This document shows positions 4,138 through 21,492 of a stretch of 57,007 nucleotides of DNA, one piece after another. The number at the start of each line of letters is the position of its first letter. The stretch's first letter is position 1. Origin of the DNA: an uncultured Pseudomonadales bacterium (GTDB lineage: Bacteria > Pseudomonadota > Alphaproteobacteria > UBA2136 > UBA6156). The stretch is taken from positions 1-57,007 of the forward strand of contig CAZROO010000005.1 in the NCBI GenBank assembly GCA_964601735.1. The letters run 5' to 3'. The translations under genes and the position numbers were made by a program. The notes below the pieces were generated by a model. It searched no databases. It saw only the letters and a list, made by a program, of their open reading frames with translations, and was not told the origin of the DNA.

Positions 4138-4138
4138 G

Positions 4139-4167
4139 AATAAAGCCCCCTAAATGGGGGCTTTATT
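4139..4167. terminator. Bidirectional terminator between the tRNA and the asmA-like gene
   Basis: AATAAAGCCCCC-taaat-GGGGGCTTTATT. Confidence 0.9.
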
Positions 4168-4230
4168 CAGATAACACGTCATGCGCAACCCTAAAAAATC
4201 AGGCCCCATAGGGCCCGATTTTAAAGGAGT

Positions 4231-6873: not shown

Positions 6874-6926
6874 ATGTGTATTCCCTTTTTAAGTAAGCGC
6901 TAGGCTCTCACGCCAACGCCAAATGG

Positions 6927-7859
6927 TCAACGCCGCAAGGCGGCAAAAGCTGTCGGCAAAGGCGCCTCTAAATGGAGAGGCTCGTCCGTCGCCGGCTGCC
7001 TCAGCACCAGCTTCCACGCATGAAGGTACAGCGTATTCGGCGTCTGCAGCGCGCGGGCCGCCTCGCGGGCGTCCGAACCGCCATACTTGTCGTCGCCCAC
7101 CAGCGGCAGGCCAATGTGCGCCATGTGGACGCGAATCTGGTTCATCCGACCGGTCAGCGGCTCGGCTTCAATCAAATGGATGTCCGGGGCAATGCTCTCC
7201 ACTACTTTCCACCGCGTCTGCGCGCTGTCGCCCTGAGGGCTCACCACCGCCATCGGCCCGCGCTTCAATATCGGCGCATCAATCAAGCCTTCTTTACCGG
7301 GCAATTTGCCCATGCACAGCGCCAGATAGGTTTTCTTCACTTCACGGCCCGCAAACTGCGTCATCAGCGCCGCCGCGGTGGTGCGGTTTTTGGCCAGAAC
7401 AATCAGCCCGGTGGTTTCGCGGTCAAGCCGGTGAACCAGTTTCGGCGGCTTATCAGGCCACAGCGCGGTCACAATCCGGTCGAGGCTGCGGGTCTGCCCG
7501 CCACCGGCCTGGGCGGGCAAACCGGCGGGCTTGCTGAATACAAGCAGTTGCTTGTCCTCATACACCAACCCGTCGGTGAACATCTTTTTGTCGGCGTTGG
7601 TGGCCACGTAGTTCTTGCTGTCGCGGCTTTCGGTGCGAGGCCCGCCCGCCAATACGGTTTGCGGCGGCAGCCTCACGGTATCGCCCGCCGCTACGCGCGC
7701 CTCGGCCTTGGCGCGCTTGCCGTTGATGCGCACATCCCCCTTGCGCAGCCACTTCTGAAGCGCCGCATACGGAATCTGCGGCAACACCTTCTTCAGCAAC
7801 CGGTCAAGCCGCTGGCCGTCGTCGGCCTCGCCAATCTTCAGTAACGTCGGCTCAGCCAT
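6927..7859 (-). CDS. rluC: RluA/RluC-family pseudouridine synthase with S4 domain
   Basis: GQRLDR S4 start, KPAG, HRLDRETTG catalytic motif, TGRMNQIRVH, GDDKYG, LYLHA. Confidence 0.93.
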   Translation of the reverse strand: MAEPTLLKIGEADDGQRLDRLLKKVLPQIPYAALQKWLRKGDVRINGKRAKAEARVAAGDTVRLPPQTVLAGGPRTESRDSKNYVATNADKKMFTDGLVYEDKQLLVFSKPAGLPAQAGGGQTRSLDRIVTALWPDKPPKLVHRLDRETTGLIVLAKNRTTAAALMTQFAGREVKKTYLALCMGKLPGKEGLIDAPILKRGPMAVVSPQGDSAQTRWKVVESIAPDIHLIEAEPLTGRMNQIRVHMAHIGLPLVGDDKYGGSDAREAARALQTPNTLYLHAWKLVLRQPATDEPLHLEAPLPTAFAALRR

Positions 7860-8670
7860 GTCGCGTAAGAATCTCCTTCAATCTCGACCACATACCGGTC
7901 GGCTGAGACGCTTCTACCCGCAAACCAGCGCCATCGCCAGCTAAAAAGCCCTTCACATAACTCCAGAATTTCTCATGCTCCAGCATGGGGAAGTGCCCAA
8001 CCCCATGCAGTTCAATGTACCGCGCATCCGGCAAATACCCCGCCAGCTCCCTGCCGCTTTGCGCGCTCACCAGCACGTCGTCGCTGCCATGAATCACCAG
8101 CGCCGGCACGTTCAGCTTGCGTATCCAGCGCTGGCTGCTGAACGCCCCGCCCGCGGTCAGGTGCGCCAGGCTCACCGAGCCCGCCGGCAAATGCGCCGTA
8201 CGCTGCTTGATGAACTCACCATACAAATGCGGGTGATGCGTCACAAACCGCTTGCCGAACAGCACTTTCATCCCCTCGAGAGGCTCATGCTCAATCAGTT
8301 GGTTGAACTCCCAAAACCCCATTTTAATCTTCCCCGGCATGGCGGCCACATCGCGCGTGGTACCCGGCTGCCCGGCGCTGGTGCTCACCAGTATCAGCCG
8401 GTTTACCCGGTCGGGAGACATCTGCACCAGCTCCTGCGCTGCAAACCCGCCCATGCTGTGGCCCAGAATGTCCGCCTGCCAGATGTTATGCAAATCCATG
8501 TAGCGCAGCACTTCCCGCGCATAGGCCTTGGGCGTGAACGGCAACGTCAGCGGCAGCATCTTGCCCACCCCCGGCGGATCGAGCCGCACCACCTCAACAT
8601 CCTTCAACTCGCGCGCGCCCTCAAACAGGTACGCTCCGCTATTCACCCCAGGCAGAATAATCAGCTTCAC
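7852..8670 (-). CDS. Alpha/beta hydrolase
   Basis: GHSMGG elbow, HGSDD acid, GVGHF His. Confidence 0.9.
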   Translation of the reverse strand: MKLIILPGVNSGAYLFEGARELKDVEVVRLDPPGVGKMLPLTLPFTPKAYAREVLRYMDLHNIWQADILGHSMGGFAAQELVQMSPDRVNRLILVSTSAGQPGTTRDVAAMPGKIKMGFWEFNQLIEHEPLEGMKVLFGKRFVTHHPHLYGEFIKQRTAHLPAGSVSLAHLTAGGAFSSQRWIRKLNVPALVIHGSDDVLVSAQSGRELAGYLPDARYIELHGVGHFPMLEHEKFWSYVKGFLAGDGAGLRVEASQPTGMWSRLKEILTRHG

Positions 8671-9998
8671 GAATGCCTCTGCAACCGCAATTTAGTAAAA
8701 TAATCGACACGCTTCCTCATCTCGCGCTCAAACCCACGCTCAACAGGGTTGTACAATACAGGCCTGCTTTTCACCTCCACGGGAAAGTAATTCTGCCCGC
8801 TGAAAGCATCCGGCGCATTGTGGTCATAATCATACCCCGCGCCATGCCCCAGCTCCTTCATCAGCTTGGTCGGCGCGTTCACAATGTGCTTCGGCGGCAC
8901 GGTATGCGCGGTCTCTGCGGCAAGCCGTTTGGCTTCGCCGAACGCCACATAAGTCGCATTGCTCTTCGGCGCCAGCGCCATGTAAATCGCAGCCTCGGCC
9001 AGCGCCAAGTCGCCTTCGGGGCTGCCCAGCATCTGGTACGTATCCCGCGCCGCCACTGCCACCATCAAAGCCTGCGGGTCGGCCAAACCCACATCCTCCA
9101 CCGCCATGCGGATGATCCGCCGCGCGACATAAAGCCCATCCTCACCACCATTGAGCATCCGCGCCAGCCAGTACAGCGCTGCATCCGGGTCGCTGCCGCG
9201 CACACTTTTGTGCAGGGCCGAAATCAAATCGTAGTGCCAGTCCCCGGCCCGGTCGTAATGCGCCGAGCGGGCAGGCAACAACCCGCCCACTCCCGCCGCA
9301 TCCAGCAATCCTTGCGGTTTTTTCGAGGCTACCGCCGCCCCCAACGTCTCGATCAGATTCAGCAGATACCGCGCATCACCATGCGCCATGTCCACCAGCG
9401 CCGCACGCGCGTCGTCGTCCAGCGGCAGCGTGCCAACCACTTCCTCGGCATGATGCAGGATATGCCGCAAGCTCCCCGTATCCAGCGCATCCACCACAAC
9501 CACCTGCGCGCGGCTCAGCAACGCACTGGTCAGGGCAAAACTCGGGTTCTCGGTGGTCGCGCCCAGCAAGGTGAACAACCCACTCTCCACATGCGGCAGC
9601 AACACATCCTGCTGCGCGCGGGTAAAGCGGTGAATCTCATCCAAAAACACCACCGTCCGTCGCCCGGCCCCTTGCCGAACCTTCGCCTCCTCCACCACAT
9701 TCCGCACATCACCCACCCCGGCGGTCACGGCAGAAAGAGGCACAAACTCCGCCTCGAACGCCTGCGCATAAAGCCGCGCCAGCGTCGTCTTGCCGCTACC
9801 GGGCGGCCCCCAAAAAATCAGGCTCTGCGGCACATGAGCCGCCACCAAACGTGTAAGAAGCCCCTCCTCGCCTACCAGCGCGGGCTGGCCCACCACTTCA
9901 CTCAAAGTCTGCGGTCGCAGCCGCTCTGCCAGCGGCGGCAATGGAGCCTCCGAACCCAGCGGCAAATCCGGTTCCGTCGCCGCGGGTTTTTTCTTCAT
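8667..9998 (-). CDS. rarA: Replication-associated recombination protein A (AAA+ ATPase)
   Basis: PLAERLRP, GPPGSGKTT, DEIHRF, GATTENP, ISALHKSVRGSDPDAALYWL. Confidence 0.97.
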   Translation of the reverse strand: MKKKPAATEPDLPLGSEAPLPPLAERLRPQTLSEVVGQPALVGEEGLLTRLVAAHVPQSLIFWGPPGSGKTTLARLYAQAFEAEFVPLSAVTAGVGDVRNVVEEAKVRQGAGRRTVVFLDEIHRFTRAQQDVLLPHVESGLFTLLGATTENPSFALTSALLSRAQVVVVDALDTGSLRHILHHAEEVVGTLPLDDDARAALVDMAHGDARYLLNLIETLGAAVASKKPQGLLDAAGVGGLLPARSAHYDRAGDWHYDLISALHKSVRGSDPDAALYWLARMLNGGEDGLYVARRIIRMAVEDVGLADPQALMVAVAARDTYQMLGSPEGDLALAEAAIYMALAPKSNATYVAFGEAKRLAAETAHTVPPKHIVNAPTKLMKELGHGAGYDYDHNAPDAFSGQNYFPVEVKSRPVLYNPVERGFEREMRKRVDYFTKLRLQRHS

Positions 9999-11467
9999 CG
10001 GCTAATCACCAGCTTCTTCACGCTCGGCCCGCGTTGAAAACGCAACTCCCACGTCCGGTGAACCGCATCAAGCAAACCCTGCACGTCGCCCACGCTTTTC
10101 ACCGGCTGCTTATCAATGTTCATCAGCAAGTCCCCGGCCTGGATATCATACTGCCCCGTATTGCCGGTGCTGGTCACCACCACGCCCTGCGTGTTCAGCG
10201 GCCAGCCCAGCTCGGCATTCAGGCTCGGGCTCAACTGCTCCACCATGCTGCCGGAAAGCGGGGTGTACCCCTTCAGTTTGCGCTGCAAACCGGGGTCGCG
10301 CGGCGGCAGGCTGGTCAGGGCAATGCTCACCGTCTGCTGCGCGCCCCCGCGCCAAATCGTCATCGGCACGTTGCGGCCCAGCTTGTCGGCGGCACTCACC
10401 AGCCGGTCGCCCAGTTGCGCAGGGTCGGCTACCGGCTGGCCGTCAAAACTCAAAATTACGTCACCTACTTTCAGCCCCGAGGTCGCCGCCGGGCTGCCGT
10501 CCACCACGTTCTGCACCAGCACGCCGCGCGCCGGCCCCAGGCCCAACCGCTCGGCCAGCGTTTCGCTTACGCTTTCGCCCTCGGCCCCCAGCCACGGGCG
10601 GCGCACGCTGCCAGTGCTTACCAAATCCTTGGCCGCACGGCTCACCAGGTTGGCAGGAATCGCAAAGCTGATGCCCTGGTTGCCGCCGTTCTTGGTGAAA
10701 ATCGCGGTGTTCACGCCCACCAGCGCACCGCTGCTGTCAATCAACGCGCCGCCGCTGTTGCCGGGGTTGATGGCCGCGTCGGTCTGGATGAACTGCCCGT
10801 ACGGGCTCAGCGCCGCCGCGCTGCGGTTCACCGCGCTCACAATCCCCATGGTGGCGCTCTGGCCGATGCCGTAGGGGTTGCCCAGCGCCAGCACCACATC
10901 GCCCACCTGCATGTTGTCGCTGTTGCCGAACCGAATCGCCGGCAACCGAACCCCGGCAGGCAGCGCCAGCTTCAGCACCGCCAAATCCAAACGCTCGTCG
11001 CCGCGTACCCCGGTCACCTTGAATTCGCGCCCGTCGCCCAGCGCCACGGTCACGTCCACCGCATCCTCAATCACGTGCAGGTTGGTCACCACCACGCCGG
11101 TCGGGTCAATCACCACCCCGCTTCCCAGGCTTTTTTCAATCTTCTCGCGCACCGGCGCATTCTGGCCCTGCAACAGCTTGTCACGCACCGCATCGCTGTA
11201 GCCCTGCTTGCTGGCGGCTACTTTCTTGCTGGTATAAATGCTCACCACGCTTGGCATGGCCGCCCGCACCGCATCATGGAAACTCAACCGCACACCCGCC
11301 CCATCGCGCACCGGCACGGTCTCGGCAAAGCTAACCGGCGATAATAGAATCACTGTCATGCTAACGAAGGTCAGCATCCACGATAAACACGCGCACCCTT
11401 GCGCGCTCAAAATCTTTAATCCTGTTTGGGAGTGTTTTTGCTTCATTCTTATGTTTATCGCCATCAC
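9995..11467 (-). CDS. HtrA/DegP-DegQ periplasmic serine endoprotease with two PDZ domains (real start possibly the ATG at 11377)
   Basis: Catalytic triad TNLHV / DLAVL / QTDAAINPGNSGG; PDZ RPWLG. Confidence 0.95.
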   Translation of the reverse strand: MMAINIRMKQKHSQTGLKILSAQGCACLSWMLTFVSMTVILLSPVSFAETVPVRDGAGVRLSFHDAVRAAMPSVVSIYTSKKVAASKQGYSDAVRDKLLQGQNAPVREKIEKSLGSGVVIDPTGVVVTNLHVIEDAVDVTVALGDGREFKVTGVRGDERLDLAVLKLALPAGVRLPAIRFGNSDNMQVGDVVLALGNPYGIGQSATMGIVSAVNRSAAALSPYGQFIQTDAAINPGNSGGALIDSSGALVGVNTAIFTKNGGNQGISFAIPANLVSRAAKDLVSTGSVRRPWLGAEGESVSETLAERLGLGPARGVLVQNVVDGSPAATSGLKVGDVILSFDGQPVADPAQLGDRLVSAADKLGRNVPMTIWRGGAQQTVSIALTSLPPRDPGLQRKLKGYTPLSGSMVEQLSPSLNAELGWPLNTQGVVVTSTGNTGQYDIQAGDLLMNIDKQPVKSVGDVQGLLDAVHRTWELRFQRGPSVKKLVISR

Positions 11468-11468
11468 T

Positions 11469-12077
11469 CTAAAATCCTAATGCCTTTTTGGCGAGGGGAA
11501 CAGTCACCGCCCGTTTCTCCTCCAAACTCAACCGGTCAAGCTTGGCCACCAGCGTGCGCAACGCCGGCACGCTGCGCTCGGCCCGCGCCAGAATAAAATT
11601 AATAACCTCGGGGCTCAACTCCAGTTGCCGTTCCGCCGCCCATTTGGCCGCCACCTGCGCCAGTTCGTCGTCGCTCGGCGGCAATACTTCCACCGCCTGC
11701 CCGGCGCTCAAGCGGCTGCGCACATCCGGCAGCAATCCTCCCAGTTCCACCACCGGCTGGCGGCTTGCCACAACCAGTGCGCCACTTTTGCCCTGGTTGT
11801 TCAGCCAATGGAACAACTGCTCCTGCCCCACCGCATCCACCTTGTCCAAATCGTCGACAGCCAAAAAATTACCCTCACCAACCCTGGCGCGCCAGATGTT
11901 GAGCAAATGCGTCTTGCCGCTTCCGGCCTCGCCCCACAAACACAAAATCCCGCGCTCGAAATTTTCCAGCAGTTCACGCGCCGCCGCGCTCCCCGCAGTG
12001 GGGAAAAAACTTTCAGCCGATAAATCCTCCCGAAAAGGAAAATTCAAAACCATCTGCGCCATGGCGCCTTTATACAC
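11469..12077 (-). CDS. hdaA: DnaA-regulatory inactivator HdaA-like protein
   Basis: N-terminal QMVLNF clamp-binding motif, GEAGSGKTHLL, DVRSRL, RAERS. Confidence 0.85.
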   Translation of the reverse strand: MYKGAMAQMVLNFPFREDLSAESFFPTAGSAAARELLENFERGILCLWGEAGSGKTHLLNIWRARVGEGNFLAVDDLDKVDAVGQEQLFHWLNNQGKSGALVVASRQPVVELGGLLPDVRSRLSAGQAVEVLPPSDDELAQVAAKWAAERQLELSPEVINFILARAERSVPALRTLVAKLDRLSLEEKRAVTVPLAKKALGF

Positions 12078-12100
12078 GAAGAAACCGCAAAAATCCTAAC

Positions 12101-12706
12101 CTAAAACCTCACTTCAACCGCTCCATCCGCCCCCATCTCCGCAGTGAGTCCCTTGGCATGGAGTTGAGCCGCCAGCGTATCGGCATTGGCGTTGGGCACG
12201 GCCATTTCGGCACCGTCCACGGTAAGACGGGTATAGGTAGCGGCCAGGCCCATCGTTCGCAGCGCCTGCAACACCCGGTCCTGGGCACCGGCGTTACCGG
12301 TCACGCGTACCACGGCCTTGCTGGCCATGTCGGCGTGCGGCGGCTGAATCATCGTCGTCGGGCTGGTCTGTACGGTGGTCGAGGTCATCCCGTCAGCCGG
12401 GTTTGCCGCAGGGTTCGCATCCAGCCCCGTCGGCGACGTCACCAGCGAGGCCGAAGTCACCAGCGCGGTGGTCGCCGAAATGGTCGCGCTCACCGTCGCC
12501 AGCACTTGGTCAATATGGTCGGTGCCGACAGGCGGTGCAGCCGGGTTCACCACCACGGTCGGGGTCACATCCAGGCCCGTTTCCACACCCGCTCCCACCA
12601 CCTCACCGCCGGGCAGCACCGGTGCGACATCTTCGCTCGTCATAGGAATGGGCTGGGCCCAAACAGCGACAGGAATAAAACAGAAACCGACAGCAAAGCG
12701 ACGCAT
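12101..12706 (-). CDS. Exported hypothetical protein: long T/P/V-rich linker plus small C-terminal alpha/beta domain (possible DUF2066 remnant)
   Basis: Signal-peptide-like N-terminus; position between ndk and hdaA. Confidence 0.6.
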   Translation of the reverse strand: MRRFAVGFCFIPVAVWAQPIPMTSEDVAPVLPGGEVVGAGVETGLDVTPTVVVNPAAPPVGTDHIDQVLATVSATISATTALVTSASLVTSPTGLDANPAANPADGMTSTTVQTSPTTMIQPPHADMASKAVVRVTGNAGAQDRVLQALRTMGLAATYTRLTVDGAEMAVPNANADTLAAQLHAKGLTAEMGADGAVEVRF

Positions 12707-12742
12707 AAACTACCTCTCCGCACCACCCTACCCCGCGCAAAA

Positions 12743-12769
12743 AAAGGCGCCAAGTGACTTGGCGCCTTT
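12743..12769 (-). terminator. Terminator after ndk
   Basis: AAAGGCGCCAAG-tga-CTTGGCGCCTTT. Confidence 0.85.
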
Positions 12770-12790
12770 ATCAACAACTGCAGAGAAAAA

Positions 12791-13333
12791 TTAGCCGACC
12801 AGCTCTGCGGCCTTGAAAAACGTAGCAATTTCACGCTTCGCAGCTTGCGGGCTGTCGCTGCCGTGAACCGCGTTGGCGGAAAGGTCGGTGCAAGGCAGCG
12901 CAAAGTCGTAGCGCAGCGTGCCGGGCTCGGCCTTCATCGGGTTGGTGGCACCCATCAGCACACGGTTTTTGATAATCGCATCATCACCTTCCAGCACCAG
13001 CACCACGCACGGGCCGCTGGTCATGAAGCTCACCAGCTCGCCAAAAAACGGGCGAGCCTTGTGCTCGGCGTAAAAAGCCTTGGCCTGCTTGTCGCTGAAG
13101 TGCATCATCTTCATGCCCGCAATCTTGAGGCCGGCATTCTCAAAACGGGCCAGAATACGGCCAATCACATGCTTGCCCACGGCATCGGGCTTGATGATGC
13201 TCAGGGTGCGTTCCTTCGCCTTGGGGGCAGCCTTTACAGCCTTCTTGGCAGGTTTGGCGGCCACCTTCTTGGCGGCAGGTTTGCTAGCCTTTGCAGGCTT
13301 TTTCACAACTTTTTTGACAGGCTTTTTGGCCAT
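12791..13333 (-). CDS. ndk: Nucleoside diphosphate kinase with a 40-aa Lys/Ala/Pro-rich N-terminal extension
   Basis: [36 protein letters not shown] (catalytic His). Confidence 0.97.
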
Positions 13334-13396
13334 GGGGATATCTGCTTCCGTTACAATGGCACGGTTTTTGGCGTTTTAACGTTGAACTGTCAAGGG

Positions 13397-13846
13397 TTAA
13401 GTCGCCTTTTTCCATCCCCGCTCAGTTTGCTGAAAGAAACTCACACTCCACCCCAGCCCTGCCAACATGCCTCGCCGCCTGACGGCGCTCTCGGCCGCCG
13501 CTGCATGGTACACATAAACCAGGCTTTCCGCCGGAATATCAAAAGCCTCCTCGGCCCCGGCCACCAGCACCGCCAACCGCCCTTCCAGGTGTTCCTGCGC
13601 TTGTCCCACCCCGGCCAAAAGCACGGGCTGGCGCACTTCATCACCCTCGCCAACCCGCCCATGCGGCAAAAACCCCGCCCCGGTGGGCCACAAACGCTCG
13701 TCCAACCGGCTCACGGCATTGTCGGCACTCACCAGCAGCACCCGCTTGCCGTCGTTCACCAGCTTGTCGAGAAACCCCGGCAAAAACGCGTCCACATCAG
13801 CGGGCAAATTCCCCGCCAGTTGGTAAAACCGCGCCTCCCCCACCAT
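13397..13846 (-). CDS. holC: DNA polymerase III chi subunit
   Basis: RFYQL, LDERLW, FLPHG, QPVLL, C-terminal GW; downstream of pepA. Confidence 0.85.
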   Translation of the reverse strand: MVGEARFYQLAGNLPADVDAFLPGFLDKLVNDGKRVLLVSADNAVSRLDERLWPTGAGFLPHGRVGEGDEVRQPVLLAGVGQAQEHLEGRLAVLVAGAEEAFDIPAESLVYVYHAAAAESAVRRRGMLAGLGWSVSFFQQTERGWKKAT

Positions 13847-13850
13847 AAAA

Positions 13851-15407
13851 TTAGGCTGCCTTGCGCGGACGCCCGCGTTTGCCGGTGCGAATCACCCTCG
13901 CAGCAGGTGCCGCCTCGGCAAAGTTGGATTCCAGCAGATGCGTCAACATCCGCACGCCCCAGCCGGTCGCGCCGTTCAACTCGCTGTGCGCCCCCGGCAC
14001 GCCCTTTTCGCTGTTGGCAGTCCCGGCAATGTCCAGGTGCGCCCACGAGGTGTTGCCGACGAATTTTTGCAGAAACTCAGCTGCACTCATCGCCCCGCCA
14101 TAACGCGACCCCACCGTATAGGTGTCCGCCACCGCACTCGGTGTCAGATAGCCCTTTTCAATCGGCAAACGCCACAGCCGCTCGCCGGTGTACTCACCCG
14201 CACTCTTAATCAACCGCGCCAGGTGCTCATCGTTGCCGAACAGCCCCGCATAAGCCCCGCCCAAGCTGATCATGCACGCCCCGGTCAGCGTCGCCAGGTT
14301 AATGAGCCGCGCCGGCTCGTGCTTCTCGATGGTGTAGGCAATGGCATCGGCCAGCACCAGCCGCCCTTCGGCATCGGTATTGCCGATCTCCACCATCAAT
14401 CCTTTGTAGCTCTTGTAAATGCTGTCGGTCACAAACGGGATGCCGCTCACCATATTCATCGCCAGCGTCAACACGCCCACCACGTTCACGCGGCTCTTGC
14501 GGCTGGCGATACTCTTCATCGTCCCCAGCACGGCTCCCGCGCCGCTCATATCGAACTTCATCCCCTTCTGCGCACCCGAAAGCTTCAGGTCATACCCGCC
14601 GGTGTCGTAGCATATCCCTTTCCCCACCAGCGCGGTCTTTTCTGCACCTTTGCCCGCGCCGTTATATTCCATCAGCACCAGACGCGGCTGGTTCTCGGGG
14701 CTGGCATTGCAGCCCACCGCCAGAATCAGGTTCAGCCCCAGCTTCTTCATTTCCTTTTCGTCGATGACGGTTACCTTCACGCCCAGCTTTTCCAGCTTCA
14801 ACGCCTCGTCGGCCATGAACTGCGGAGTAGCCACATTGGGTGGCGTGTTGCCGCAGTTGCGGGTCAGGTCAACGCCGCCCAGCATCGATTCCATCAGCTT
14901 TTCACCGGCGGTGAGCTTGTTGGCCGCCGTGCCGCCCACCAATACAGTCAGCTTTTGCAACTTCACCTGCTGATGCGGCTTGATGTTGGTCTTGAAATCC
15001 TCAAACCGGTACAGCGACATCTGCACACCTTCGGCCAACGCACTCCCGGCATCCACCTGCGCGGCAACGTCACCCACATCGCCCAGTGCAATTGTCACCT
15101 CGCGCCAGCCCTGCGCGTCAATCTGCCGTGCAATGGCCATCCCGGCCTTCCACCAGTCGCGGCGCTCCATCGCCTTCAGCTTACCCACGCCGTGCACCAG
15201 CACGTTGTCGCCACCAATCACGGTACGGAAAAATTCCCCCGCCCCGCCGGTAAAGCGCCCGGCACGGAAACTTTTCTTCACAGCGTTTTTGCGCGCCTTG
15301 TTCAAAACCTCGCCGCCACCCAGCAGTTTTTGGCCGTTTTCGGCAAACACCACGATATTTTTCTTCATGGCCAACGGCGTAATACGGCCAAATTTGAGCG
15401 CGAACAT
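13851..15407 (-). CDS. pepA: Leucyl aminopeptidase (M17) with C-terminal AT-hook-like tail
   Basis: LVGKGICYDTGG, MKFDMSGA, NTDAEGRLVLAD, ATLTGA, WAHLDIAG; start set at the ATG after a GGAG RBS. Confidence 0.96.
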   Translation of the reverse strand: MFALKFGRITPLAMKKNIVVFAENGQKLLGGGEVLNKARKNAVKKSFRAGRFTGGAGEFFRTVIGGDNVLVHGVGKLKAMERRDWWKAGMAIARQIDAQGWREVTIALGDVGDVAAQVDAGSALAEGVQMSLYRFEDFKTNIKPHQQVKLQKLTVLVGGTAANKLTAGEKLMESMLGGVDLTRNCGNTPPNVATPQFMADEALKLEKLGVKVTVIDEKEMKKLGLNLILAVGCNASPENQPRLVLMEYNGAGKGAEKTALVGKGICYDTGGYDLKLSGAQKGMKFDMSGAGAVLGTMKSIASRKSRVNVVGVLTLAMNMVSGIPFVTDSIYKSYKGLMVEIGNTDAEGRLVLADAIAYTIEKHEPARLINLATLTGACMISLGGAYAGLFGNDEHLARLIKSAGEYTGERLWRLPIEKGYLTPSAVADTYTVGSRYGGAMSAAEFLQKFVGNTSWAHLDIAGTANSEKGVPGAHSELNGATGWGVRMLTHLLESNFAEAAPAARVIRTGKRGRPRKAA

Positions 15408-15511
15408 GATTTTCTCCACAATTATTGAATAATTATTTTCGTGGGGCATAAAATGCCACACCCTTGCCGCCGGCATCAACCCCTATTAGGGTGCGCCCCA
15501 GAAGAACTTAA

Positions 15512-16600
15512 ATGAAAACGCTGCCCAGATACTTTGCGAGCGAGTTGATTAAACCGACGCTCCTCGCCCTCGCCGTCCTTCTCGGCATCATCTGGCTGCA
15601 ACAATCCATGATGTTCCTCGATTTCGTCATCAACAAGGGCCTCGGCCTCGGCACGTTCCTGCGCCTCACCGTCATGCTGGTGCCGCGCCTTCTCTTAATA
15701 GTGTTGCCGCTCGCGCTGTTCGCGGGTGTTGCCGCCGCCTCGCGCCGCTGGGTCGACGACAATGAGTACCTCATCCTCGCCGCCACCGGCTGGCCGCGCT
15801 GGCGGCTGGCGGTACCCGCCGCCATGTGGGGCCTGCTGGGCGTCGTACTGGCCTACAGTGTAGCCTTCTGGGTGCTGCCCCCCGCCATCACCAGTTTCAA
15901 GGAGCTTCAAAACCGTCTCCGCACCATGGATGGTGAAATCCTGCTTGAAGAAGGCGCCTTCAACCAGTTAGGCGACAACCTGATGGTCTATTTAAAAGAG
16001 CGCGTCACGCCCACCCGCCTCACCGGCCTGCTGGTGCACGATACCCGCGAACCCGCCAAAACCGTCACCTGGTTCGCCAAGGGTGGCGAAGTGGTGATGG
16101 GCCCGGACGGTTTTCCGCGCCTGGTACTCACCGATGGATTACGCCAGGAAAGCGGCAAAAACGGCGTCAACATGCTGCAATTCTCCGCCCATACGCTCGA
16201 CCTCAAGCAGCAGCTCAACCACCCCTCCAATGCCCGCCAGCGCGACATGGAAGAATATTACATCCCCGAACTGCTCAGCCAAATCCGCAACGGCGAATCC
16301 GCGCACGACAGGCAGGACGCCATCACCGAACTCGCCTGCCGCCTTACGTGGCCACTGGCCGCGTTGCCGTTATGCCTGCTCGGCGTCAGCATCATGCTGC
16401 GCCGGGCCGATCGCCGCGCCAACACCACCCGCCGCCTCGCCCTCGCCGGACTCGTCGCCGTGATTTACATCGCCCTGCTGCCGGCAGGGCAAGGGCTGCT
16501 GCAGGGCGGCAACGAAGCCGGCATGGCCCTGCTGGTGCTGTTGCCGCTTATCACAACCACCCTGGCCTTCTGGATGCTGCGGGAGCCGACCTATGTCTAA
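15512..16600 (+). CDS. lptF: LPS export ABC permease LptF
   Basis: Three N-terminal TMs, DNEYLILAATG motif, periplasmic beta-jellyroll, three C-terminal TMs; paired with lptG. Confidence 0.9.
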   Translation: MKTLPRYFASELIKPTLLALAVLLGIIWLQQSMMFLDFVINKGLGLGTFLRLTVMLVPRLLLIVLPLALFAGVAAASRRWVDDNEYLILAATGWPRWRLAVPAAMWGLLGVVLAYSVAFWVLPPAITSFKELQNRLRTMDGEILLEEGAFNQLGDNLMVYLKERVTPTRLTGLLVHDTREPAKTVTWFAKGGEVVMGPDGFPRLVLTDGLRQESGKNGVNMLQFSAHTLDLKQQLNHPSNARQRDMEEYYIPELLSQIRNGESAHDRQDAITELACRLTWPLAALPLCLLGVSIMLRRADRRANTTRRLALAGLVAVIYIALLPAGQGLLQGGNEAGMALLVLLPLITTTLAFWMLREPTYV

Positions 16601-17720
16601 AGCCATCCTCCCCAGCCTGAGCGCCCCGCGCCGCGCCGGCCCCACCATCGGATTCTATCTCGCCCGCCGTTTTGCCTGGACGCTGTTCTTCGTCATGCTC
16701 GGCCTCACCGCGCTTATATACGTCATCGACACGCTTGAAATGCTGCGCCGCCTCGGCAACCACAACATCGGGGCTTCCGTCGCGCTTAAAATGAGCCTGT
16801 TCCGCCTGCCCGACTTGGCGCTGACCCTGCTGCCCTTCGTCGTCCTGCTGGCCACGCTCGCGCTGCTCCGGCAACTTACCCGCAATTCCGAAATCATTAT
16901 CCTCCGCGCCGCAGGCCTGCCTACCTGGCGCCTGCTCAACGGCCCGGTGACGGTCATCCTGCTCACCGGCATGCTGGCGCTGTTCATCGGCAATCCGCTG
17001 GCGGCCACCATGCTCAAGCGGTACGAAAGCTGGCAGGCCGAAAACCTGCCCGGCAGCACCAAGGGGGTGGTCACGGCGGGGGGCACCATCTGGCTCAAGC
17101 AACGGCAGGAAGACCACGATTTCTTCATCACCGCGCGCGAGGCCCAAAGCAATGGCGCCTTACTCAAGGACGGCACCGTCTTCCTCTTCAGCCCCAAGGG
17201 CGATTTCCAGGCCCGACTGGACGCCGATACCATCACGCTGGAACCCGGTCTCTGGCACCTTAACAACACCACGCTGCTGCAACCCAACCAGCCGGTAAAG
17301 CACGAAGATTCCGTCACCATCCCCACCGACCTGACCCCGCAGGTCATCCAGAGCAGCTTCCACCCCGCGGGCACGCTCACCTTATGGGAACTCAACCGCT
17401 TCATCGATATCCTGCGCGAAACCGGCTTCCCCAGTAGCGCGCACGAAATGCAATTCCAGCGCCTGCTCGCCCTGCCCGCGCTGCTCTTCGCCATGTTCTG
17501 GCTGGCGGTGCCGTGGGGCCTGCGCAACGTACGCGGCGGCGGCGTCTGGCAACTGGCGGCAGCGGGCGTCGGCATGGGTTTCGGCTTTTATTTGCTCACC
17601 AACCTGTTCACTACTTTCGGCCTGGCCGGGCGCCTCAACGTGGTGCTGGCCGCCTGGGCCCCGGTGCTGGTGGCGGGCATGGCCGCCGCCGCCCTGCTCC
17701 TCGCCTGGCGCGAAGAATAG
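16593..17720 (+). CDS. lptG: LPS export ABC permease LptG
   Basis: SEIIILRAAG, GTIWLKQ, LAAWAP; overlaps the lptF stop. Confidence 0.9.
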   Translation: MSKAILPSLSAPRRAGPTIGFYLARRFAWTLFFVMLGLTALIYVIDTLEMLRRLGNHNIGASVALKMSLFRLPDLALTLLPFVVLLATLALLRQLTRNSEIIILRAAGLPTWRLLNGPVTVILLTGMLALFIGNPLAATMLKRYESWQAENLPGSTKGVVTAGGTIWLKQRQEDHDFFITAREAQSNGALLKDGTVFLFSPKGDFQARLDADTITLEPGLWHLNNTTLLQPNQPVKHEDSVTIPTDLTPQVIQSSFHPAGTLTLWELNRFIDILRETGFPSSAHEMQFQRLLALPALLFAMFWLAVPWGLRNVRGGGVWQLAAAGVGMGFGFYLLTNLFTTFGLAGRLNVVLAAWAPVLVAGMAAAALLLAWREE

Positions 17721-17795
17721 GGTCAAAGGACAATAGCTCACAGGCAAAAAATTTTATCGCCTGCAATCCTGTCACCCTGTTAGCCTGTAATCCTT
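17718..17795. repeat. Octamer arrays between lptG and lptD
   Basis: Degenerate left arm from the lptG stop (TAGGGTCA-AAGGACAA..CAGGC); right arm GCCTGCAA-TCCTGTCA-CCCTGTTA-GCCTGTAA-TCCTT. Confidence 0.65.
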
Positions 17796-17804
17796 GCTAG
17801 GCGC

Positions 17805-20039
17805 TTGACGCCACCCCATTCCACCATCCATTGTCGGCCCTGGAAAAAGAGCCCGCCCCTGTACCGCATTTTGGCCCTGTTAGCGTTATTCGCCATCCCC
17901 GCGGCCTGGGCCCAAACCACAGCGCCTGTTTCCGGCACCCAAGCCAAGTCTCCCCAACCCTTCGACCTCGACGCCGACACGGTAAGCTACGAAAGCTCAC
18001 CCACCCGCATCGTCGCCCGCGGCAACGTGGTGGTCAGCAGCTCCGACGGCCGCCTGCAAACCCCCGAACTCACCTATTATTCCGATACGGGCCGCGTACT
18101 GGCTTCCGGCGGCGTCACCTATACCAACCCCTCCAACCAGGTACTCACCGCCCAAACGCTCGAACTCACCGACAAATTCCGCCAGGGCGCCGCCGACAAG
18201 CTCACCATGTCGGTGCCGCAACTCGGCCAGATTCTCACCGCCCAAACCGCCACCAAACTCAGCCCCACCGAATATCAATTGAACCACGCCACCTACAGCC
18301 CGTGCCGCACCTGCCCGGGCGAAAGCAAACCCTGGTCGGTCAGCGCCCAAACCGTGACGTACGACACCTCCGAAAGCAAGGTCACCTACCGCAACGCCGT
18401 CTTCAAGGTCAAAGACACCCCCATCATGTACCTGCCCTATTTCAGCAACAGCGTAGGCCCCAAACAACCCAAAAGCGGCCTATTGTTACCAACCGTCGGC
18501 CACTCCTCCAATAAAGGCTTCATGGTCGGCGAACGCTATTACATCTGGAACCCGCGCGAAAACGCCGATTACACCATCGGCGACACCTACATGAGCGCGC
18601 GCGGCCATATGCTTGCCGCCGAGCGCCGCCAGATTACCGACTACACGCAAAGTGAATTCCGCGGCAGCTTCATCAACGACCTCGACCAGAACTCCCGCCC
18701 GCGCGGCGATGTCCAGGGTATCTTCCAGCAGGTGCTCCAGCCCGGCCTGCGTGTCGGTTTCAATGCCGAGCGCGCCAGCGACCGCACCTACCTCAACGAA
18801 TACTTCGGCCGCACCGACCCCTATCTCGCCAGCACGCTCTACGGCGAAAGCGGAGCCGAAGACCACTACTACGCCCTCACCGCCACGCAGTTCCAGAACC
18901 TCAGCAGCACCATGCCCAACGGCAGCGCGTCGCAGGCCACCACCGCGCAAGTGCTGCCGCACCTCCAGCTCGAAAAAACCTTCAGCATGGGCGGCCGTGG
19001 CGACACCCTCAACCTCACCGGCGACTCCATCAACCTCATGCGCACCACCGGCACACGCTACCGCCGCATGATCGGCATGGCCGACTACAATAAGCCACTG
19101 CTGTTTGAAGACGGCAGCAAGCTCAACCTCGACGCCACCCTGCGCGGCGACTATTACAACGTCGATGGCCAAAATGGCCCTGGCTCCCAAAACGGCGATA
19201 CCTTCCGCGCCCTGCCGGAAGCCACCGCGCTCTGGAGCAAGCCCTACGTCTCGCCCGGCGGCTATCATACCATCGCGCCTACCGTCATGGGCGCCCTTTC
19301 GCCACGCGGGGGCAACCCTTCCGGTATCCCGAATGAAGACTCCGTCGGCTACGAACTCGACGCCGCAAACCTGTTCGAGCCCAACCGCTACGCCGGGCTC
19401 GACCGGGTCGAAACCGGCCCGCGCGTGGTCTACGGACTCGACAACCGCTGGGGTGATGCCAGCCACACCGACTGGCGCCTGTTCCTCGGCCAGGGCATCC
19501 GTAAATTCAACGACAACCGACTGCCGACCAACAGCGGCGCCGCCACCGCGGTAACCGACTGGATTGCCGCCGCCGAGGCCAACCCCACCAACTGGCTCAA
19601 TTTCCAAAACCAGCTCCGGCTCGATAATTCCGACCTCACCATCCGCCGCGCCGACACCAGCATGCGCATCGGCGAGTACAACAGAACCCGCCTCATCGTC
19701 ACCCACAGCTATCTCGACAACGGCCCCAACGAACTGAGCCTCGACTTCCAGTTACCCATCAACGACAACTGGTCGTTCCTCTCCCAGGCGCGCGAGGACA
19801 TCGCCAACAATACGCTGCTCGAAGGCACCGCCGGCTTCCGCTTCAGGGCTGACTGCTATCAAGTCGACCTGATGGCCAAGCGCAGCGGATACGAAAGTGC
19901 CGACCTCCACCCCAGTACCGACTACATCGTCAACCTCAAGCTGCTCACCTTCAACACCGGTGACGACAACGGCAACATCGGCGTCCTGCCCGGTGCCACC
20001 GATACCCGCAGCAGCCTCGACACCATGCCAAAACTGTAG
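17805..20039 (+). CDS. lptD: LPS assembly outer-membrane protein LptD
   Basis: LDADTVSY, ATYSPCRTC, IMYLPYF, SDRTYL, NEDS, DRVETGPR, ADCY. Confidence 0.93.
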   Translation: MTPPHSTIHCRPWKKSPPLYRILALLALFAIPAAWAQTTAPVSGTQAKSPQPFDLDADTVSYESSPTRIVARGNVVVSSSDGRLQTPELTYYSDTGRVLASGGVTYTNPSNQVLTAQTLELTDKFRQGAADKLTMSVPQLGQILTAQTATKLSPTEYQLNHATYSPCRTCPGESKPWSVSAQTVTYDTSESKVTYRNAVFKVKDTPIMYLPYFSNSVGPKQPKSGLLLPTVGHSSNKGFMVGERYYIWNPRENADYTIGDTYMSARGHMLAAERRQITDYTQSEFRGSFINDLDQNSRPRGDVQGIFQQVLQPGLRVGFNAERASDRTYLNEYFGRTDPYLASTLYGESGAEDHYYALTATQFQNLSSTMPNGSASQATTAQVLPHLQLEKTFSMGGRGDTLNLTGDSINLMRTTGTRYRRMIGMADYNKPLLFEDGSKLNLDATLRGDYYNVDGQNGPGSQNGDTFRALPEATALWSKPYVSPGGYHTIAPTVMGALSPRGGNPSGIPNEDSVGYELDAANLFEPNRYAGLDRVETGPRVVYGLDNRWGDASHTDWRLFLGQGIRKFNDNRLPTNSGAATAVTDWIAAAEANPTNWLNFQNQLRLDNSDLTIRRADTSMRIGEYNRTRLIVTHSYLDNGPNELSLDFQLPINDNWSFLSQAREDIANNTLLEGTAGFRFRADCYQVDLMAKRSGYESADLHPSTDYIVNLKLLTFNTGDDNGNIGVLPGATDTRSSLDTMPKL

Positions 20040-20053
20040 CCTGGCAGGCAGCA

Positions 20054-20078
20054 AAAAGGCCCCTCAACAGGGCCTTTT
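20054..20078. terminator. Bidirectional terminator
   Basis: AAAAGGCCC...GGGCCTTTT between convergent genes. Confidence 0.8.
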
Positions 20079-20089
20079 CAATATCGAAA

Positions 20090-20587
20090 TCAGGCCAGCA
20101 AACGTTGGCGCAGGTTATGGCACAAGGCATCCAACGTCGGAGCAATGCCACCCTGGTTCCCAAAACAATATTCCACCTGAAGGTTCACTATCGAACCGAT
20201 ATTATCGGCACTGAGCCTGAAATCCCCCCGGTAGCCATACAGCTTTTTACCTTTGGCATACGCATAGCCCACTTCGCAGGCCGTGCCGCTATCAACATCC
20301 GTACCGTCAAGCACCGCTACAACGGCTTGGGATGAATCAATCGCCTCAAAGTTGGTTTTGGCAATCTGCCGGTTCAACGTCTGCCACCGGTTTCGCTGTT
20401 CCGGGCCAAACGGCAAGGCATTTGCTTCTTCAACCGGTTTTTCATCGGTGAGGGTCCAGGGGTCCAGTAAATCCAGGCCTAGTTGACGCAACCGGGGTAA
20501 AAGAACGCCACTGTAGTAGTGGCGCCCGGCTTCACTAAATCCCAGAGGGCTGGCAACATATACTGTAGGCTTTAAAGCTCCGCTCAT
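20090..20587 (-). CDS. Nucleoside 2-deoxyribosyltransferase / N-glycosidase family protein
   Basis: VYVASPLGF, D..VVAVLDGTDVDSGTACEVGYAYAKGK, GDFR, NLQV. Confidence 0.88.
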   Translation of the reverse strand: MSGALKPTVYVASPLGFSEAGRHYYSGVLLPRLRQLGLDLLDPWTLTDEKPVEEANALPFGPEQRNRWQTLNRQIAKTNFEAIDSSQAVVAVLDGTDVDSGTACEVGYAYAKGKKLYGYRGDFRLSADNIGSIVNLQVEYCFGNQGGIAPTLDALCHNLRQRLLA

Positions 20588-20651
20588 CGGCGCTCCTTCA
20601 AAAGAGATGAGATCCCCTTCTCATACTCAATCAAATTGCCTTCCGGCAAGC

Positions 20652-21476: not shown

Positions 21477-21492
21477 GGCGGCACCCTTCCTG

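What the first reader, a model, noticed from the sequence alone, without database searches (positions are those of the whole stretch)
13214..13333. Ndk fused to a histone H1-like Lys/Ala/Pro tail
The first 40 residues ([40 protein letters not shown], 16 Lys) precede the normal [10 protein letters not shown] start, and no ATG lies near the core start. PAKK/AAKP repeats are the hallmark of H1-like DNA-binding tails (HlpA/Hc2/AlgP-type; established knowledge). An oligomeric Ndk would display 4-6 such tails, possibly tethering (d)NTP supply to the nucleoid or acting as a condensing protein (inference).
Basis: partly seen in the sequence, partly recalled or inferred. Interest (0 to 1): 0.65.

Follow-up and report, generated by a model that had tools for sequence, protein, structure and literature searches.

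The report
Ndk with lysine-rich disordered N-terminal tail
A housekeeping nucleotide kinase (Ndk) in a small group of uncultured soil and wastewater alphaproteobacteria has gained a real, conserved, 30-41-residue positively charged floppy tail of the kind that sticks proteins to DNA, RNA or polyphosphate. The combination is unusual for this enzyme, the type of tail is well known, and what it binds is untested.

Summary
Residues 1-40 (13214..13333) are K16 A12 P5 V5 with no acidic residue, joined directly to a complete NDK domain.

The tail is translated:
- Five orthologues carry it (30-41 aa).
- All tail indels are multiples of 3, while upstream indels are not.
- Tail dN/dS is 0.06-0.5.
- One orthologue has no alternative start codon before the catalytic core.
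- Four independent assemblies reproduce it.

AlphaFold2 predicts the tail as disordered. The five tailed proteins form one clade (200/200 bootstraps). The other Ndks examined (117 of the 120 listed database hits and 159 fetched loci) start M-x-x-E-R-T at the core.

The most likely function is a non-specific polyanion tether that places a dimeric or tetrameric Ndk (2-4 tails) on the nucleoid. Published KPAA/PAKKA tails also bind RNA and polyphosphate granules, so the target is open. The condensing and dNTP-channelling ideas are untested.

Context: the neighbouring PepA carries a C-terminal AT-hook tail that is shared across a much wider alphaproteobacterial clade. This suggests DNA-binding tails on oligomeric housekeeping enzymes in this group.

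Verdict: a new variant of a known kind, of moderate interest.

The parts
12791..13333 (-). Complete ndk coding sequence (180 aa plus stop codon)
   Evidence: ORF list. Pfam NDK and NCBIfam NF001908 both score above their cutoffs. The identical protein is found on 17 public contigs.
13214..13333 (-). Lys/Ala/Pro-rich N-terminal tail, residues 1-40 (K16 A12 P5 V5, net charge +16, no D/E), predicted disordered
   Evidence: Composition. AF2 gives pLDDT 47-57 and no secondary structure. The tail is conserved as a 30-41 aa segment in P0001, P0002, P0003 and L091. All tail indels are multiples of 3. dN/dS is 0.06-0.5.
12794..13213 (-). Canonical Ndk catalytic core, residues 41-180. Beta-1 ([10 protein letters not shown]) starts immediately after the tail, and the catalytic His lies in NAVHGSD.
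   Evidence: Pfam model positions 1-134 of 135 are matched. The core aligns with solved Ndks from residue 39-41 onward. AF2 core pLDDT is about 90. Catalytic and nucleotide-binding columns are invariant in the alignment.
13331..13333 (-). Start codon ATG (Met-Ala), conserved in all five tailed orthologues
   Evidence: DNA alignments A2 and A3. In L091 this is the only canonical start codon before residue 42.
13345..13349 (-). Shine-Dalgarno-like GGAAG, 11 nt upstream of the ATG (GGAAG or GGAG in the orthologues, 6-11 nt upstream)
   Evidence: Read directly from the sequence. Conserved block in alignments A2 and A3.
13388..13393 (-). Conserved TTGACA box, 3 nt after the holC stop codon. It may be a -35 element or a regulator site; no matching -10 element was found.
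   Evidence: Invariant CTTGACA in the tailed loci. The promoter scan found no full sigma-70 match.
13854..13919 (-). Context, not part of ndk: C-terminal extension of the neighbouring PepA, ending in the AT-hook-like motif KRGRPRKAA
   Evidence: Pfam AT_hook scores 16.8 bits (cutoff 17.4), E=0.0056. The extension is conserved in L001 and absent from 28 other syntenic PepAs. It is present with 1-3 hooks across a wider clade.

Best explanation
The gene encodes a catalytically standard nucleoside diphosphate kinase. In one narrow lineage of uncultured Alphaproteobacteria it acquired an in-frame, translated, intrinsically disordered polycationic N-terminal extension of 30-41 residues (about +10 to +17 charge). 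The extension is maintained by selection on composition (Lys/Ala/Pro, no acidic residues) rather than on exact sequence.

Shown: the tail is real, translated, conserved and predicted disordered, it is restricted to a single clade, and the core is intact.

Inferred: the tail acts as a non-sequence-specific electrostatic tether for a cellular polyanion. Because Ndk is a dimer or tetramer, the assembly would be multivalent (2-4 tails). It would therefore concentrate on that polyanion, most likely nucleoid DNA, and place NTP/dNTP regeneration there without changing the kinase chemistry. Bridging or condensation of DNA by the multivalent particle is a possible secondary effect.
For: Translation and selection:
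- Five orthologues keep a K/A/P tail despite 20-45% amino-acid divergence within it.
- All tail indels are 3, 6 or 39 nt, whereas indels upstream of the ATG are 1, 2 and 11 nt.
- In the well-aligned pairs, synonymous changes outnumber non-synonymous ones in the tail: 8 to 2 for window vs P0001 and 15.5 to 9.5 for window vs P0002. That gives omega 0.06-0.12, against 0.03-0.05 in the core.
- No acidic residue occurs in any of the five tails, although Lys-to-Glu is a single transition.
- L091 has no ATG, GTG or TTG between Met1 and residue 42, so its core can only be made together with the tail.
- A Shine-Dalgarno-like motif is conserved upstream of the ATG.
- Four independent assemblies reproduce the tail.

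Disorder: AF2 gives pLDDT 47-57 and no secondary structure for residues 1-40, and about 90 for the core.

Single origin: the tailed proteins are monophyletic in 200/200 bootstraps. The sister sequence P0004 is untailed and sits in a syntenic locus.

Polyanion binding:
- The composition matches KPAA/PAKKA tails shown experimentally to bind DNA. Examples are PhaM (PMC3556143), M. smegmatis Ku together with the HU/Hlp examples it cites (PMC3553676), and actinobacterial TopA (PMC7398561).
- Lysine-rich low-complexity regions (LCRs) are enriched in DNA-binding proteins of prokaryotes (PMC6821194).

DNA as the target:
- The adjacent PepA carries a DNA-specific AT-hook tail in this lineage and its wider clade.
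- ndk lies between holC (DNA polymerase III chi subunit) and hda.
Against: - There is no binding, localisation, proteomic or transcript evidence. No RNA run holds the locus.
- The tail is short compared with AlgP and PhaF (150+ aa), has few exact repeats, and matches no curated family.
- KPAA-type tails also bind polyphosphate granules and RNA (PMC9239181, PMC12818456), so DNA is not singled out.
- The proteome encoded in the window is generally basic (median pI 8.8). The basic Ndk core (pI about 9, against 5.2-6.3 in untailed relatives) is therefore not specific evidence.
- Low-complexity expansions can persist with little function.
- The distribution is very narrow (five sequences).
- The holC-ndk adjacency is shared with untailed Ndks, so it says nothing specific about the tail.
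Confidence: 0.55

Rival explanations
1. RNA or ribosome tether. The tail binds mRNA or rRNA, as the KPAA region of P. aeruginosa PhaF does, and so places GTP/NTP regeneration at sites of transcription and translation.
For: The disordered KPAA C-terminal domain of PhaF binds specific transcripts directly and activates their translation, and AlgP co-purifies with RNA-binding proteins (PMC12818456). Lysine-rich LCRs also occur in ribosomal proteins (PMC6821194). The tail's composition and predicted disorder are the same as for the DNA hypothesis.
Against: Nothing in the locus points to RNA. The neighbouring tailed enzyme, PepA, carries an AT-hook, which is a DNA minor-groove motif. The tail has only four KP[AV]x motifs, against 22 KPAA repeats in PhaF.
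Confidence: 0.15
2. Polyphosphate-granule tether. The tail docks Ndk onto polyP granules, as the KPAA domain does for AlgP, and so couples nucleotide pools to the phosphate store.
For: AlgP localises to polyP granules and needs its KPAA C-terminal domain to space them. Ndk has been linked genetically to polyP levels in P. aeruginosa (PMC9239181). The tail is a strong polycation (+16).
Against: No ppk, ppx or granule genes lie near ndk in the window. Whether this organism makes polyP granules is unknown. Purely electrostatic binding would not distinguish polyP from nucleic acid.
Confidence: 0.1
3. Little or no specific ligand. The tail is a lineage-specific low-complexity expansion (codon-repeat slippage after Met-Ala) that is tolerated or only mildly useful, for example for solubility or for expression through an A-rich 5' coding region, in a proteome that is already basic.
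For: There is a weak 12-nt periodicity. Tail length varies from 30 to 41 aa among close relatives. Tail GC3 (0.60) is lower and its AAA codon share higher than in the core. The tail evolves 3-10 times faster than the core. The window proteome is generally basic. The distribution is very narrow.
Against: dN/dS is well below 1 in the unambiguous pairs. Acidic residues are completely excluded and about 35-40% Lys is kept in four of the five tails (27% in the shorter L091 tail), across lineages whose cores differ at dS 0.6-1.6. The tail persists in every known member of the clade. No RNA structure that would point to a purely mRNA-level role was found (z=0.18).
Confidence: 0.12
4. Anionic-membrane association. 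The tail holds Ndk at the inner membrane through phosphatidylglycerol or cardiolipin, similar in outcome to membrane-bound forms of Ndk/NME.
For: The polycationic tail could bind acidic lipids (inference). From my own knowledge, some eukaryotic NME isoforms use N-terminal or basic surface elements for membrane binding. NME3 (1zs6) appears among the solved homologues with an N-terminal extension.
Against: The tail has no amphipathic or hydrophobic element: it contains no F, W, L or I (apart from Met1, Val is the only hydrophobic residue), and no helix is predicted. K/A/P tails of this type have been characterised on nucleic-acid or granule binders, not on membrane binders.
Confidence: 0.04
5. 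Annotation artefact. Translation really starts downstream, so the mature Ndk lacks all or most of the tail.
For: GTG codons exist at positions 10 and 24 in the window sequence. There is no experimental evidence for the N-terminus.
Against: The internal GTGs are not conserved in position, they lie inside the tail, and they are absent from L091. Frame-preserving indels and omega below 1 hold across the whole tail. The Shine-Dalgarno-like motif sits in front of ATG 13333, not in front of the GTGs. The first canonical start codon after codon 24 is GTG52, inside the core after the KPD motif, so a start there would remove beta-1 and the conserved Lys.
Confidence: 0.03
6. Host-directed effector. Ndk is secreted, and the Lys-rich tail acts as a nuclear-localisation or cell-penetrating signal in a eukaryotic or prey cell.
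For: From my own knowledge, several pathogens secrete Ndk. KKxxKK motifs resemble classical nuclear-localisation signals. The basic proteome and the approximately 1.3-Mb contigs of relatives hint at a possibly host-associated lifestyle.
Against: The tail has no signal peptide or known secretion motif (no hydrophobic core). This is the only ndk seen at the locus and it has a housekeeping context. The samples are soil, rhizosphere and wastewater, with no host information.
Confidence: 0.01

Closest known systems
AlgP and PhaF KPAA-repeat C-terminal domains (Pseudomonas)
   Same: Lys/Ala/Pro-rich, free of acidic residues, predicted disordered, with a 4-residue K-P-A/V-x periodicity. They act as polyanion-binding tethers that position another activity or structure (PMC9239181, PMC12818456).
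   Different: Those domains are 150-195 aa with 9-30 repeats, sit at the C-terminus, and are attached to scaffold or regulator domains. This tail is 30-41 aa with four K-P motifs, sits at the N-terminus, and is attached to a metabolic enzyme. No sequence-family match was found.
PAKKA-type tails of HU/Hlp (Deinococcus N-terminal; Mycobacterium and Streptomyces C-terminal), M. smegmatis Ku and actinobacterial TopA
   Same: The composition is the same and the length is similar (Deinococcus HU and Ku tails are tens of residues). They were acquired in a lineage-specific way, evolve rapidly, and modulate or add non-specific DNA binding and DNA bridging (PMC3553676, PMC7398561).
   Different: All of these host proteins already bind DNA through their folded domains. 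Ndk is a nucleotide kinase with no established requirement for DNA binding. The lineage here is Alphaproteobacteria, not Actinobacteria or Deinococcus.
PhaM of Ralstonia eutropha (PAKKA C-terminus tethering PHB granules to the nucleoid)
   Same: A short Lys-rich tail is used to attach a non-DNA function to the nucleoid (PMC3556143). This is the closest analogue for the proposed mechanism.
   Different: PhaM is a granule-associated activator or scaffold, not a housekeeping enzyme, and its tail is C-terminal.
Canonical proteobacterial Ndk (for example Halomonas sp. 593 3VGS/3VGU, P. aeruginosa 6AES, E. coli 2HUR)
   Same: The core aligns over its whole length, with E=1.8e-53 to the Halomonas protein. 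The short C-terminus is typical of dimeric and tetrameric Ndks (PMC7554756). Catalytic residues are conserved.
   Different: The solved and typical Ndks start at M-A-x-E-R-T, and none has the 40-aa tail. This subclade also has a 3-residue insertion (LPCTDLS) just before the catalytic His, which it shares with its untailed relatives.
PepA with a C-terminal AT-hook tail (same locus and a wider alphaproteobacterial clade)
   Same: This is another oligomeric housekeeping enzyme in the same genome that carries a short basic tail of DNA-binding type.
   Different: The motif chemistry differs (an Arg-Gly-Arg-Pro AT-hook rather than Lys/Ala/Pro), it sits at the C-terminus, and it is phylogenetically much older and more widespread than the Ndk tail.

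Membership tests
Nucleoside diphosphate kinase (Pfam PF00334 / NCBIfam NF001908) | Full-length match to the NDK domain model above the curated cutoff | tested here: met
   Pfam: 183.9 bits (cutoff 27), model positions 1-134 of 135. NF001908: 197.7 bits (cutoff 155).
Nucleoside diphosphate kinase (Pfam PF00334 / NCBIfam NF001908) | Conserved catalytic His (NAVHGSD) and nucleotide-binding residues (the K of KPD, Y, R, T, R, N) | tested here: met
   Columns K48, Y88, R124, T130, R141, N154 and H157 are invariant in alignment A1.
Nucleoside diphosphate kinase (Pfam PF00334 / NCBIfam NF001908) | Ferredoxin-like alpha/beta fold | tested here: met
   The AF2 model gives core pLDDT of about 90 with the expected beta-alpha-beta-beta-alpha-beta order. 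The core has E=1.8e-53 to solved Ndk 3VGS.
Nucleoside diphosphate kinase (Pfam PF00334 / NCBIfam NF001908) | Kinase activity and oligomeric state | not testable with these tools
   A dimer or tetramer is inferred from the short C-terminus and the closest solved homologues (PMC7554756).
Bacterial histone H1-like Lys/Ala/Pro repeat tails (AlgP/PhaF KPAA, HU/Ku/PhaM PAKKA) | Composition dominated by Lys, Ala and Pro, with no acidic residues | tested here: met
   K 40%, A 30%, P 12.5% and D+E 0 in the window tail, with similar values in all five orthologues.
Bacterial histone H1-like Lys/Ala/Pro repeat tails (AlgP/PhaF KPAA, HU/Ku/PhaM PAKKA) | Tandem short repeats (KPAA or PAKKA units, many copies) | tested here: inconclusive
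   There are four K-P-[AV]-x motifs, only one of them an exact KPAA. Tandem Repeats Finder detects only a 12-nt period of 3.3 copies with 67% matches.
Bacterial histone H1-like Lys/Ala/Pro repeat tails (AlgP/PhaF KPAA, HU/Ku/PhaM PAKKA) | Intrinsic disorder of the free tail | tested here: met
   AF2 gives pLDDT 47-57 and no helix or strand for residues 1-40. This is a prediction only.
Bacterial histone H1-like Lys/Ala/Pro repeat tails (AlgP/PhaF KPAA, HU/Ku/PhaM PAKKA) | Detectable sequence homology to a described H1-like family | tested here: not met
   The tail gives no Pfam or NCBIfam hit even at E<=10. The representative search with residues 1-62 found no K/A/P-rich relative. Low complexity makes homology hard to define, so the tail is best treated as a convergent class, not a family.
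Bacterial histone H1-like Lys/Ala/Pro repeat tails (AlgP/PhaF KPAA, HU/Ku/PhaM PAKKA) | Non-specific binding to DNA or another polyanion that depends on the lysines | not testable with these tools
   This needs gel-shift and localisation assays with and without the tail.
AT-hook (Pfam PF02178), tested on the PepA neighbour only | R-G-R-P core flanked by basic residues | tested here: inconclusive
   The motif KRGRPRKAA scores 16.8 bits, just under the 17.4 cutoff (E=0.0056). It is conserved and multiplied in relatives. The Ndk tail itself contains no GRP motif.

The most novel reading that the evidence does not exclude
In this alphaproteobacterial group, oligomeric housekeeping enzymes double as nucleoid-associated proteins. 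Hexameric PepA would carry 6-18 AT-hooks. In the window's sub-lineage, dimeric or tetrameric Ndk would carry 2-4 H1-like tails. Together they would form multivalent DNA-bridging particles, a form of enzyme-based chromatin. The tailed Ndk would also place (d)NTP regeneration physically on the chromosome beside the replisome, in line with its position between holC and hda.
Probability: 0.12. Interest if true: 0.75.

Novelty: new variant of a known kind. Interest (0 to 1): 0.45.

Why it matters
Lys/Ala/Pro tails have been described on proteins that already handle nucleic acids (HU, Ku, TopA) or on granule scaffolds (AlgP, PhaF, PhaM). A metabolic nucleotide kinase that carries one would be a natural example of enzyme localisation achieved with a minimal disordered tether.

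It gives a directly testable case for the old idea that NTP/dNTP synthesis is spatially coupled to the nucleoid or replisome. Together with the AT-hook PepA, it suggests that a poorly known alphaproteobacterial clade recruits abundant oligomeric enzymes to DNA.

If the tail instead binds RNA or polyphosphate, it extends the recently broadened repertoire of KPAA-type tails. If it does nothing measurable, it is a well-documented case of a low-complexity extension kept under purifying selection.

Tried and rejected
1. A database search with residues 1-65 was meant to survey tailed Ndks. Only 387 candidates were scored and all matched the core, so it was uninformative; the low-complexity tail contributed no candidates.
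2. An exhaustive phmmer search of residues 1-62 against 1.84 billion representatives gave one hit, a eukaryotic multi-NDK protein that matches the core only. Clustering at 50% identity can hide tailed members behind untailed representatives, so this is only weak evidence of absence.
3. Many tblastn matches in the genome and metagenome scans seemed to reach into the tail (query residues 3-31). On inspection all were spurious, apart from L091: they were upstream non-coding DNA or the end of an upstream sucD-like gene.
4. The tail alone matched nothing in Pfam or NCBIfam. The full-length protein gave one very weak hit (E=2.5), through its tail, to the long adenylate-kinase model PRK13808. This is a lead I could not verify.
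5. No RNA sequencing run holds the locus, so there is no transcript or start-site evidence.
6. Comparing the upstream DNA with the nearest untailed relative (L171) was meant to decide between an in-frame insertion and recruitment of the 5' region. It failed because the upstream gene differs and the DNA is not alignable.
7. The sigma-70 promoter scan found nothing, and the 5' RNA fold showed no structure beyond shuffled controls.
8. I first read the basic pI of the tailed cores as co-evolution with the tail. I set this aside because the whole window proteome is basic.
The third succeeded.

Full report
**Observation.**
The feature is on the minus strand. The ORF at 12791..13333 encodes 180 aa. 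Residues 1-40 (13214..13333) read [40 protein letters not shown]. They contain 16 Lys, 12 Ala, 5 Pro and 5 Val, with no Asp or Glu.
- Residue 41 begins [10 protein letters not shown]. Pfam NDK matches residues 41-177 to model positions 1-134 of 135 (E=1.6e-54).
- The NCBIfam equivalog NF001908 scores above its curated cutoff.
- With a background Lys frequency of 4.9% in the window's genes, 16 Lys in 40 residues has P=2e-11, or 3e-7 after correcting for all positions.
- No other ORF in any frame of the 57-kb window has such a segment.

**Is the tail translated?**
Several independent lines say yes.
1. Three database proteins (P0001, P0002, P0003, 181 aa each) and one metagenome locus (L091, 170 aa) are Ndk orthologues whose cores are 89-97% identical to this one. 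All carry a K/A/P tail of 30-41 residues.
2. In DNA alignments, every indel inside the tail is a multiple of three (3, 6 and 39 nt). Indels upstream of the ATG are 1, 2 and 11 nt.
3. Nei-Gojobori counts show more synonymous than non-synonymous change in the tail for the well-aligned pairs.
   - Window vs P0001 gives 8 synonymous to 2 non-synonymous changes (omega 0.06).
   - Window vs P0002 gives 15.5 to 9.5 (omega 0.12).
   - Tail omega rises to 0.16-0.54 in the more divergent, harder-to-align pairs.
   - Core omega is 0.03-0.09 across all pairs.
4. Not one acidic residue occurs in any of the five tails.
5. The candidate internal starts (GTG10 and GTG24 in the window) lie within the tail and are not conserved in position. 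L091 has no ATG, GTG or TTG at all between Met1 and residue 42, which is already past the KPD motif.
6. A GGAAG or GGAG motif sits 6-11 nt upstream of the conserved ATG-GCC start.
7. Contigs assembled independently from a 2020 wastewater run, a 2024 soil run and two 2025 rhizosphere runs carry the region with no indel in the tail. Other organisms' Ndk fragments in the same runs diverge exactly at the core boundary.

No transcript or peptide data exist.

**Distribution.**
The tail is confined to one small clade.
- Of the 120 best Ndk hits, only the top three are tailed. The rest are 138-152 aa, plus one 172-aa sequence whose extension is not Lys-rich.
- None of 80 loci from GTDB species representatives has a tail, and none of the 79 other metagenome loci does. 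Apparent tblastn extensions into the tail were upstream non-coding DNA or a sucD-like gene end.
- An exhaustive phmmer search with residues 1-62 against 1.84 billion representatives found no other tailed Ndk. Clustering at 50% identity limits this test.
- On a neighbour-joining tree of cores, the five tailed proteins are monophyletic in 200/200 bootstraps. Their sister is the untailed P0004 (78% identity), whose locus is syntenic downstream (ndk, unknown gene, hda, htrA, rarA).

A single recent gain is the simplest reading. The 13-codon length difference in L091 and a weak 12-nt period suggest growth and shrinkage by repeat slippage.

**Structure.**
AlphaFold2 predicts residues 1-40 with pLDDT 47-57 and no secondary structure. 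The core has pLDDT of about 90, and beta-1 starts at residue 41.

The closest solved proteins are Halomonas Ndk (3VGS dimer, 3VGU tetramer), followed by Ndks from P. aeruginosa, Burkholderia, Acinetobacter, Myxococcus and E. coli. Those whose assembly the review tabulates or describes (all but the Burkholderia entry) are tetramers. None has an N-terminal tail (PMC7554756). The short C-terminus of this protein also fits the dimer/tetramer class.

**What the tail most likely does.**
The composition is that of the KPAA/PAKKA class of H1-like low-complexity tails. These are documented as follows:
- They add or modulate non-specific DNA binding and DNA bridging in HU/Hlp, M. smegmatis Ku and actinobacterial TopA (PMC3553676, PMC7398561).
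- They tether PHB granules to the nucleoid through PhaM (PMC3556143).
- They localise AlgP to polyphosphate granules (PMC9239181).
- They make P. aeruginosa PhaF an RNA-binding activator of translation (PMC12818456).

Lysine-rich low-complexity regions are statistically associated with DNA-binding proteins in prokaryotes (PMC6821194).

The best-supported mechanism is therefore an electrostatic, sequence-independent polyanion tether, made multivalent by Ndk oligomerisation. I favour DNA as the target for a contextual reason described in the next section. RNA, polyphosphate, a near-neutral expansion, membrane binding, a mis-called start and a secreted effector are ranked as rivals. The sequence alone cannot separate DNA, RNA and polyP.

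**Context.**
ndk lies between holC (DNA polymerase III chi subunit) and a gene of unknown function followed by hda, within the order pepA-holC-ndk. Where an M17 aminopeptidase gene could be found upstream of ndk in the fetched loci, it was on the same strand, including many loci with untailed Ndks. The adjacency is therefore not specific to the tail.

More telling is that the PepA next door ends in a roughly 20-residue extension, ...RVIRTGKRGRPRKAA, with an AT-hook-like motif.
- Pfam AT_hook scores 16.8 bits against a 17.4 cutoff.
- The extension is conserved in the P0003 lineage and absent from 28 other syntenic alphaproteobacterial PepAs.
- A PepA search showed that a broad set of uncultured alphaproteobacterial PepAs (47-73% identity, 517-567 aa) carries C-terminal extensions. 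Of the 25 whose sequences I read, 24 have one to three such hooks. More distant PepAs stop at the canonical end.
- Several of those hook-bearing PepAs appear to sit on the same long contigs as untailed Ndks, judging from matching contig lengths in the two hit tables.

From this I conclude that AT-hook PepA is an old trait of the clade and the Ndk tail is a recent addition in one sub-lineage. From my own knowledge, E. coli PepA is a DNA-binding hexamer used in Xer recombination and carAB repression, so a DNA-binding tail on PepA is functionally plausible. Two oligomeric housekeeping enzymes with DNA-type basic tails in one operon-sized region is the main reason I rank DNA first.

**Caveats.**
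- The proteome encoded in the window is basic overall (median pI 8.8; 31 of 50 ORFs above pI 8). The basic pI of the tailed Ndk cores (about 9, against 5.2-6.3 in untailed relatives) may reflect a proteome-wide trend.
- The tail matches no curated family and should be treated as a convergent compositional class, not a homologous domain.
- I found no paper describing an Ndk with such a tail. That absence covers only the held library.

**Comparison and novelty.**
As an enzyme, this is an ordinary member of the Ndk family, and all testable defining features are met. As a tail, it meets the compositional and disorder criteria of H1-like K/A/P tails. It is short, weakly repetitive and without detectable homology, and its binding is untested.

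The combination is, as far as these searches show, undescribed. Known hosts of such tails are DNA-binding proteins or granule scaffolds. I rate it a new variant of a known kind.

**Verdict.**
- Observation: confirmed.
- Interpretation: partly supported. The fusion is real and H1-like in composition, while the nucleoid tether and condensation roles are plausible but unproven, and the expected tail number is lower than proposed.
- Interest: 0.45.
- Most novel reading not excluded: enzyme-based chromatin with nucleoid-localised (d)NTP regeneration. I give it a probability of about 0.12, with interest 0.75 if true.

Noticed in passing
window 13854..13919 (-), C-terminus of PepA (CDS 13851..15407 or 15479); also L001 7927..9489 and proteins P0219-P0265: PepA (M17 leucyl aminopeptidase) ends in a roughly 20-aa extension with an AT-hook-like motif, KRGRPRKAA. 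The extension is conserved in the sister lineage. In a broad clade of uncultured Alphaproteobacteria it expands to 1-3 AT-hooks (20-70 aa). It is absent from more distant PepAs and from 28 other syntenic loci. I found no literature on this.
   Followed up: partly
whole window (about 50 ORFs): The encoded proteome is unusually basic for a 60% GC genome: the median pI of crude gene calls is 8.8. This includes normally acidic cytosolic proteins such as UvrA (pI 9.0), RecG (9.5) and PepA (9.5).
   Followed up: partly
window 1..54000: GC skew on the + strand is strongly and uniformly negative (about -0.1 to -0.29 per 2-kb bin), and most genes lie on the minus strand. The magnitude is large for a bacterium.
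   Followed up: no
window 12854..12874 (-), Ndk residues 154-160 region; alignment A1: This Ndk subclade, tailed and untailed members alike, has a 3-residue insertion with a Cys ([16 protein letters not shown], against [13 protein letters not shown] in Halomonas) just before the catalytic His. There is a second Cys in SGPCVV. A redox-sensitive pair is conceivable.
   Followed up: no
window 13388..13393 (-) and 13361..13370 (-): CTTGACA and CAAAA(A/C)CCG blocks are conserved in the holC-ndk spacer of all the tailed loci, but there is no recognisable -10 hexamer. They may be a non-canonical promoter or a regulator site.
   Followed up: partly
window 12101..12706 (-); L001 10621..11424: A gene of unknown function lies between ndk and hda. 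It has a signal-peptide-like N-terminus, a highly variable Ala/Pro/Thr/Val-rich middle (201 vs 267 aa in the sister lineage) and a conserved C-terminal block of about 70 aa. It has no Pfam or NCBIfam match.
   Followed up: no
Ndk residues 3-58 (tail plus start of core) vs NCBIfam NF010381 (PRK13808, adenylate kinase, 335-position model): There is a very weak match (E=2.5) of the full-length Ndk, through its tail, to positions 246-302 of an unusually long adenylate-kinase model. This hints that some adenylate kinases carry a K/A/P-rich C-terminal extension, which would be a possible parallel case. I could not verify it.
   Followed up: no
window 1184..3667 (+) and 4061..4137 (+): An 827-aa autotransporter-type outer-membrane protein (TIGR01414 beta-barrel domain) lies here, followed by a tRNA-Pro(CGG), the only RNA gene found in the window.
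   Followed up: no
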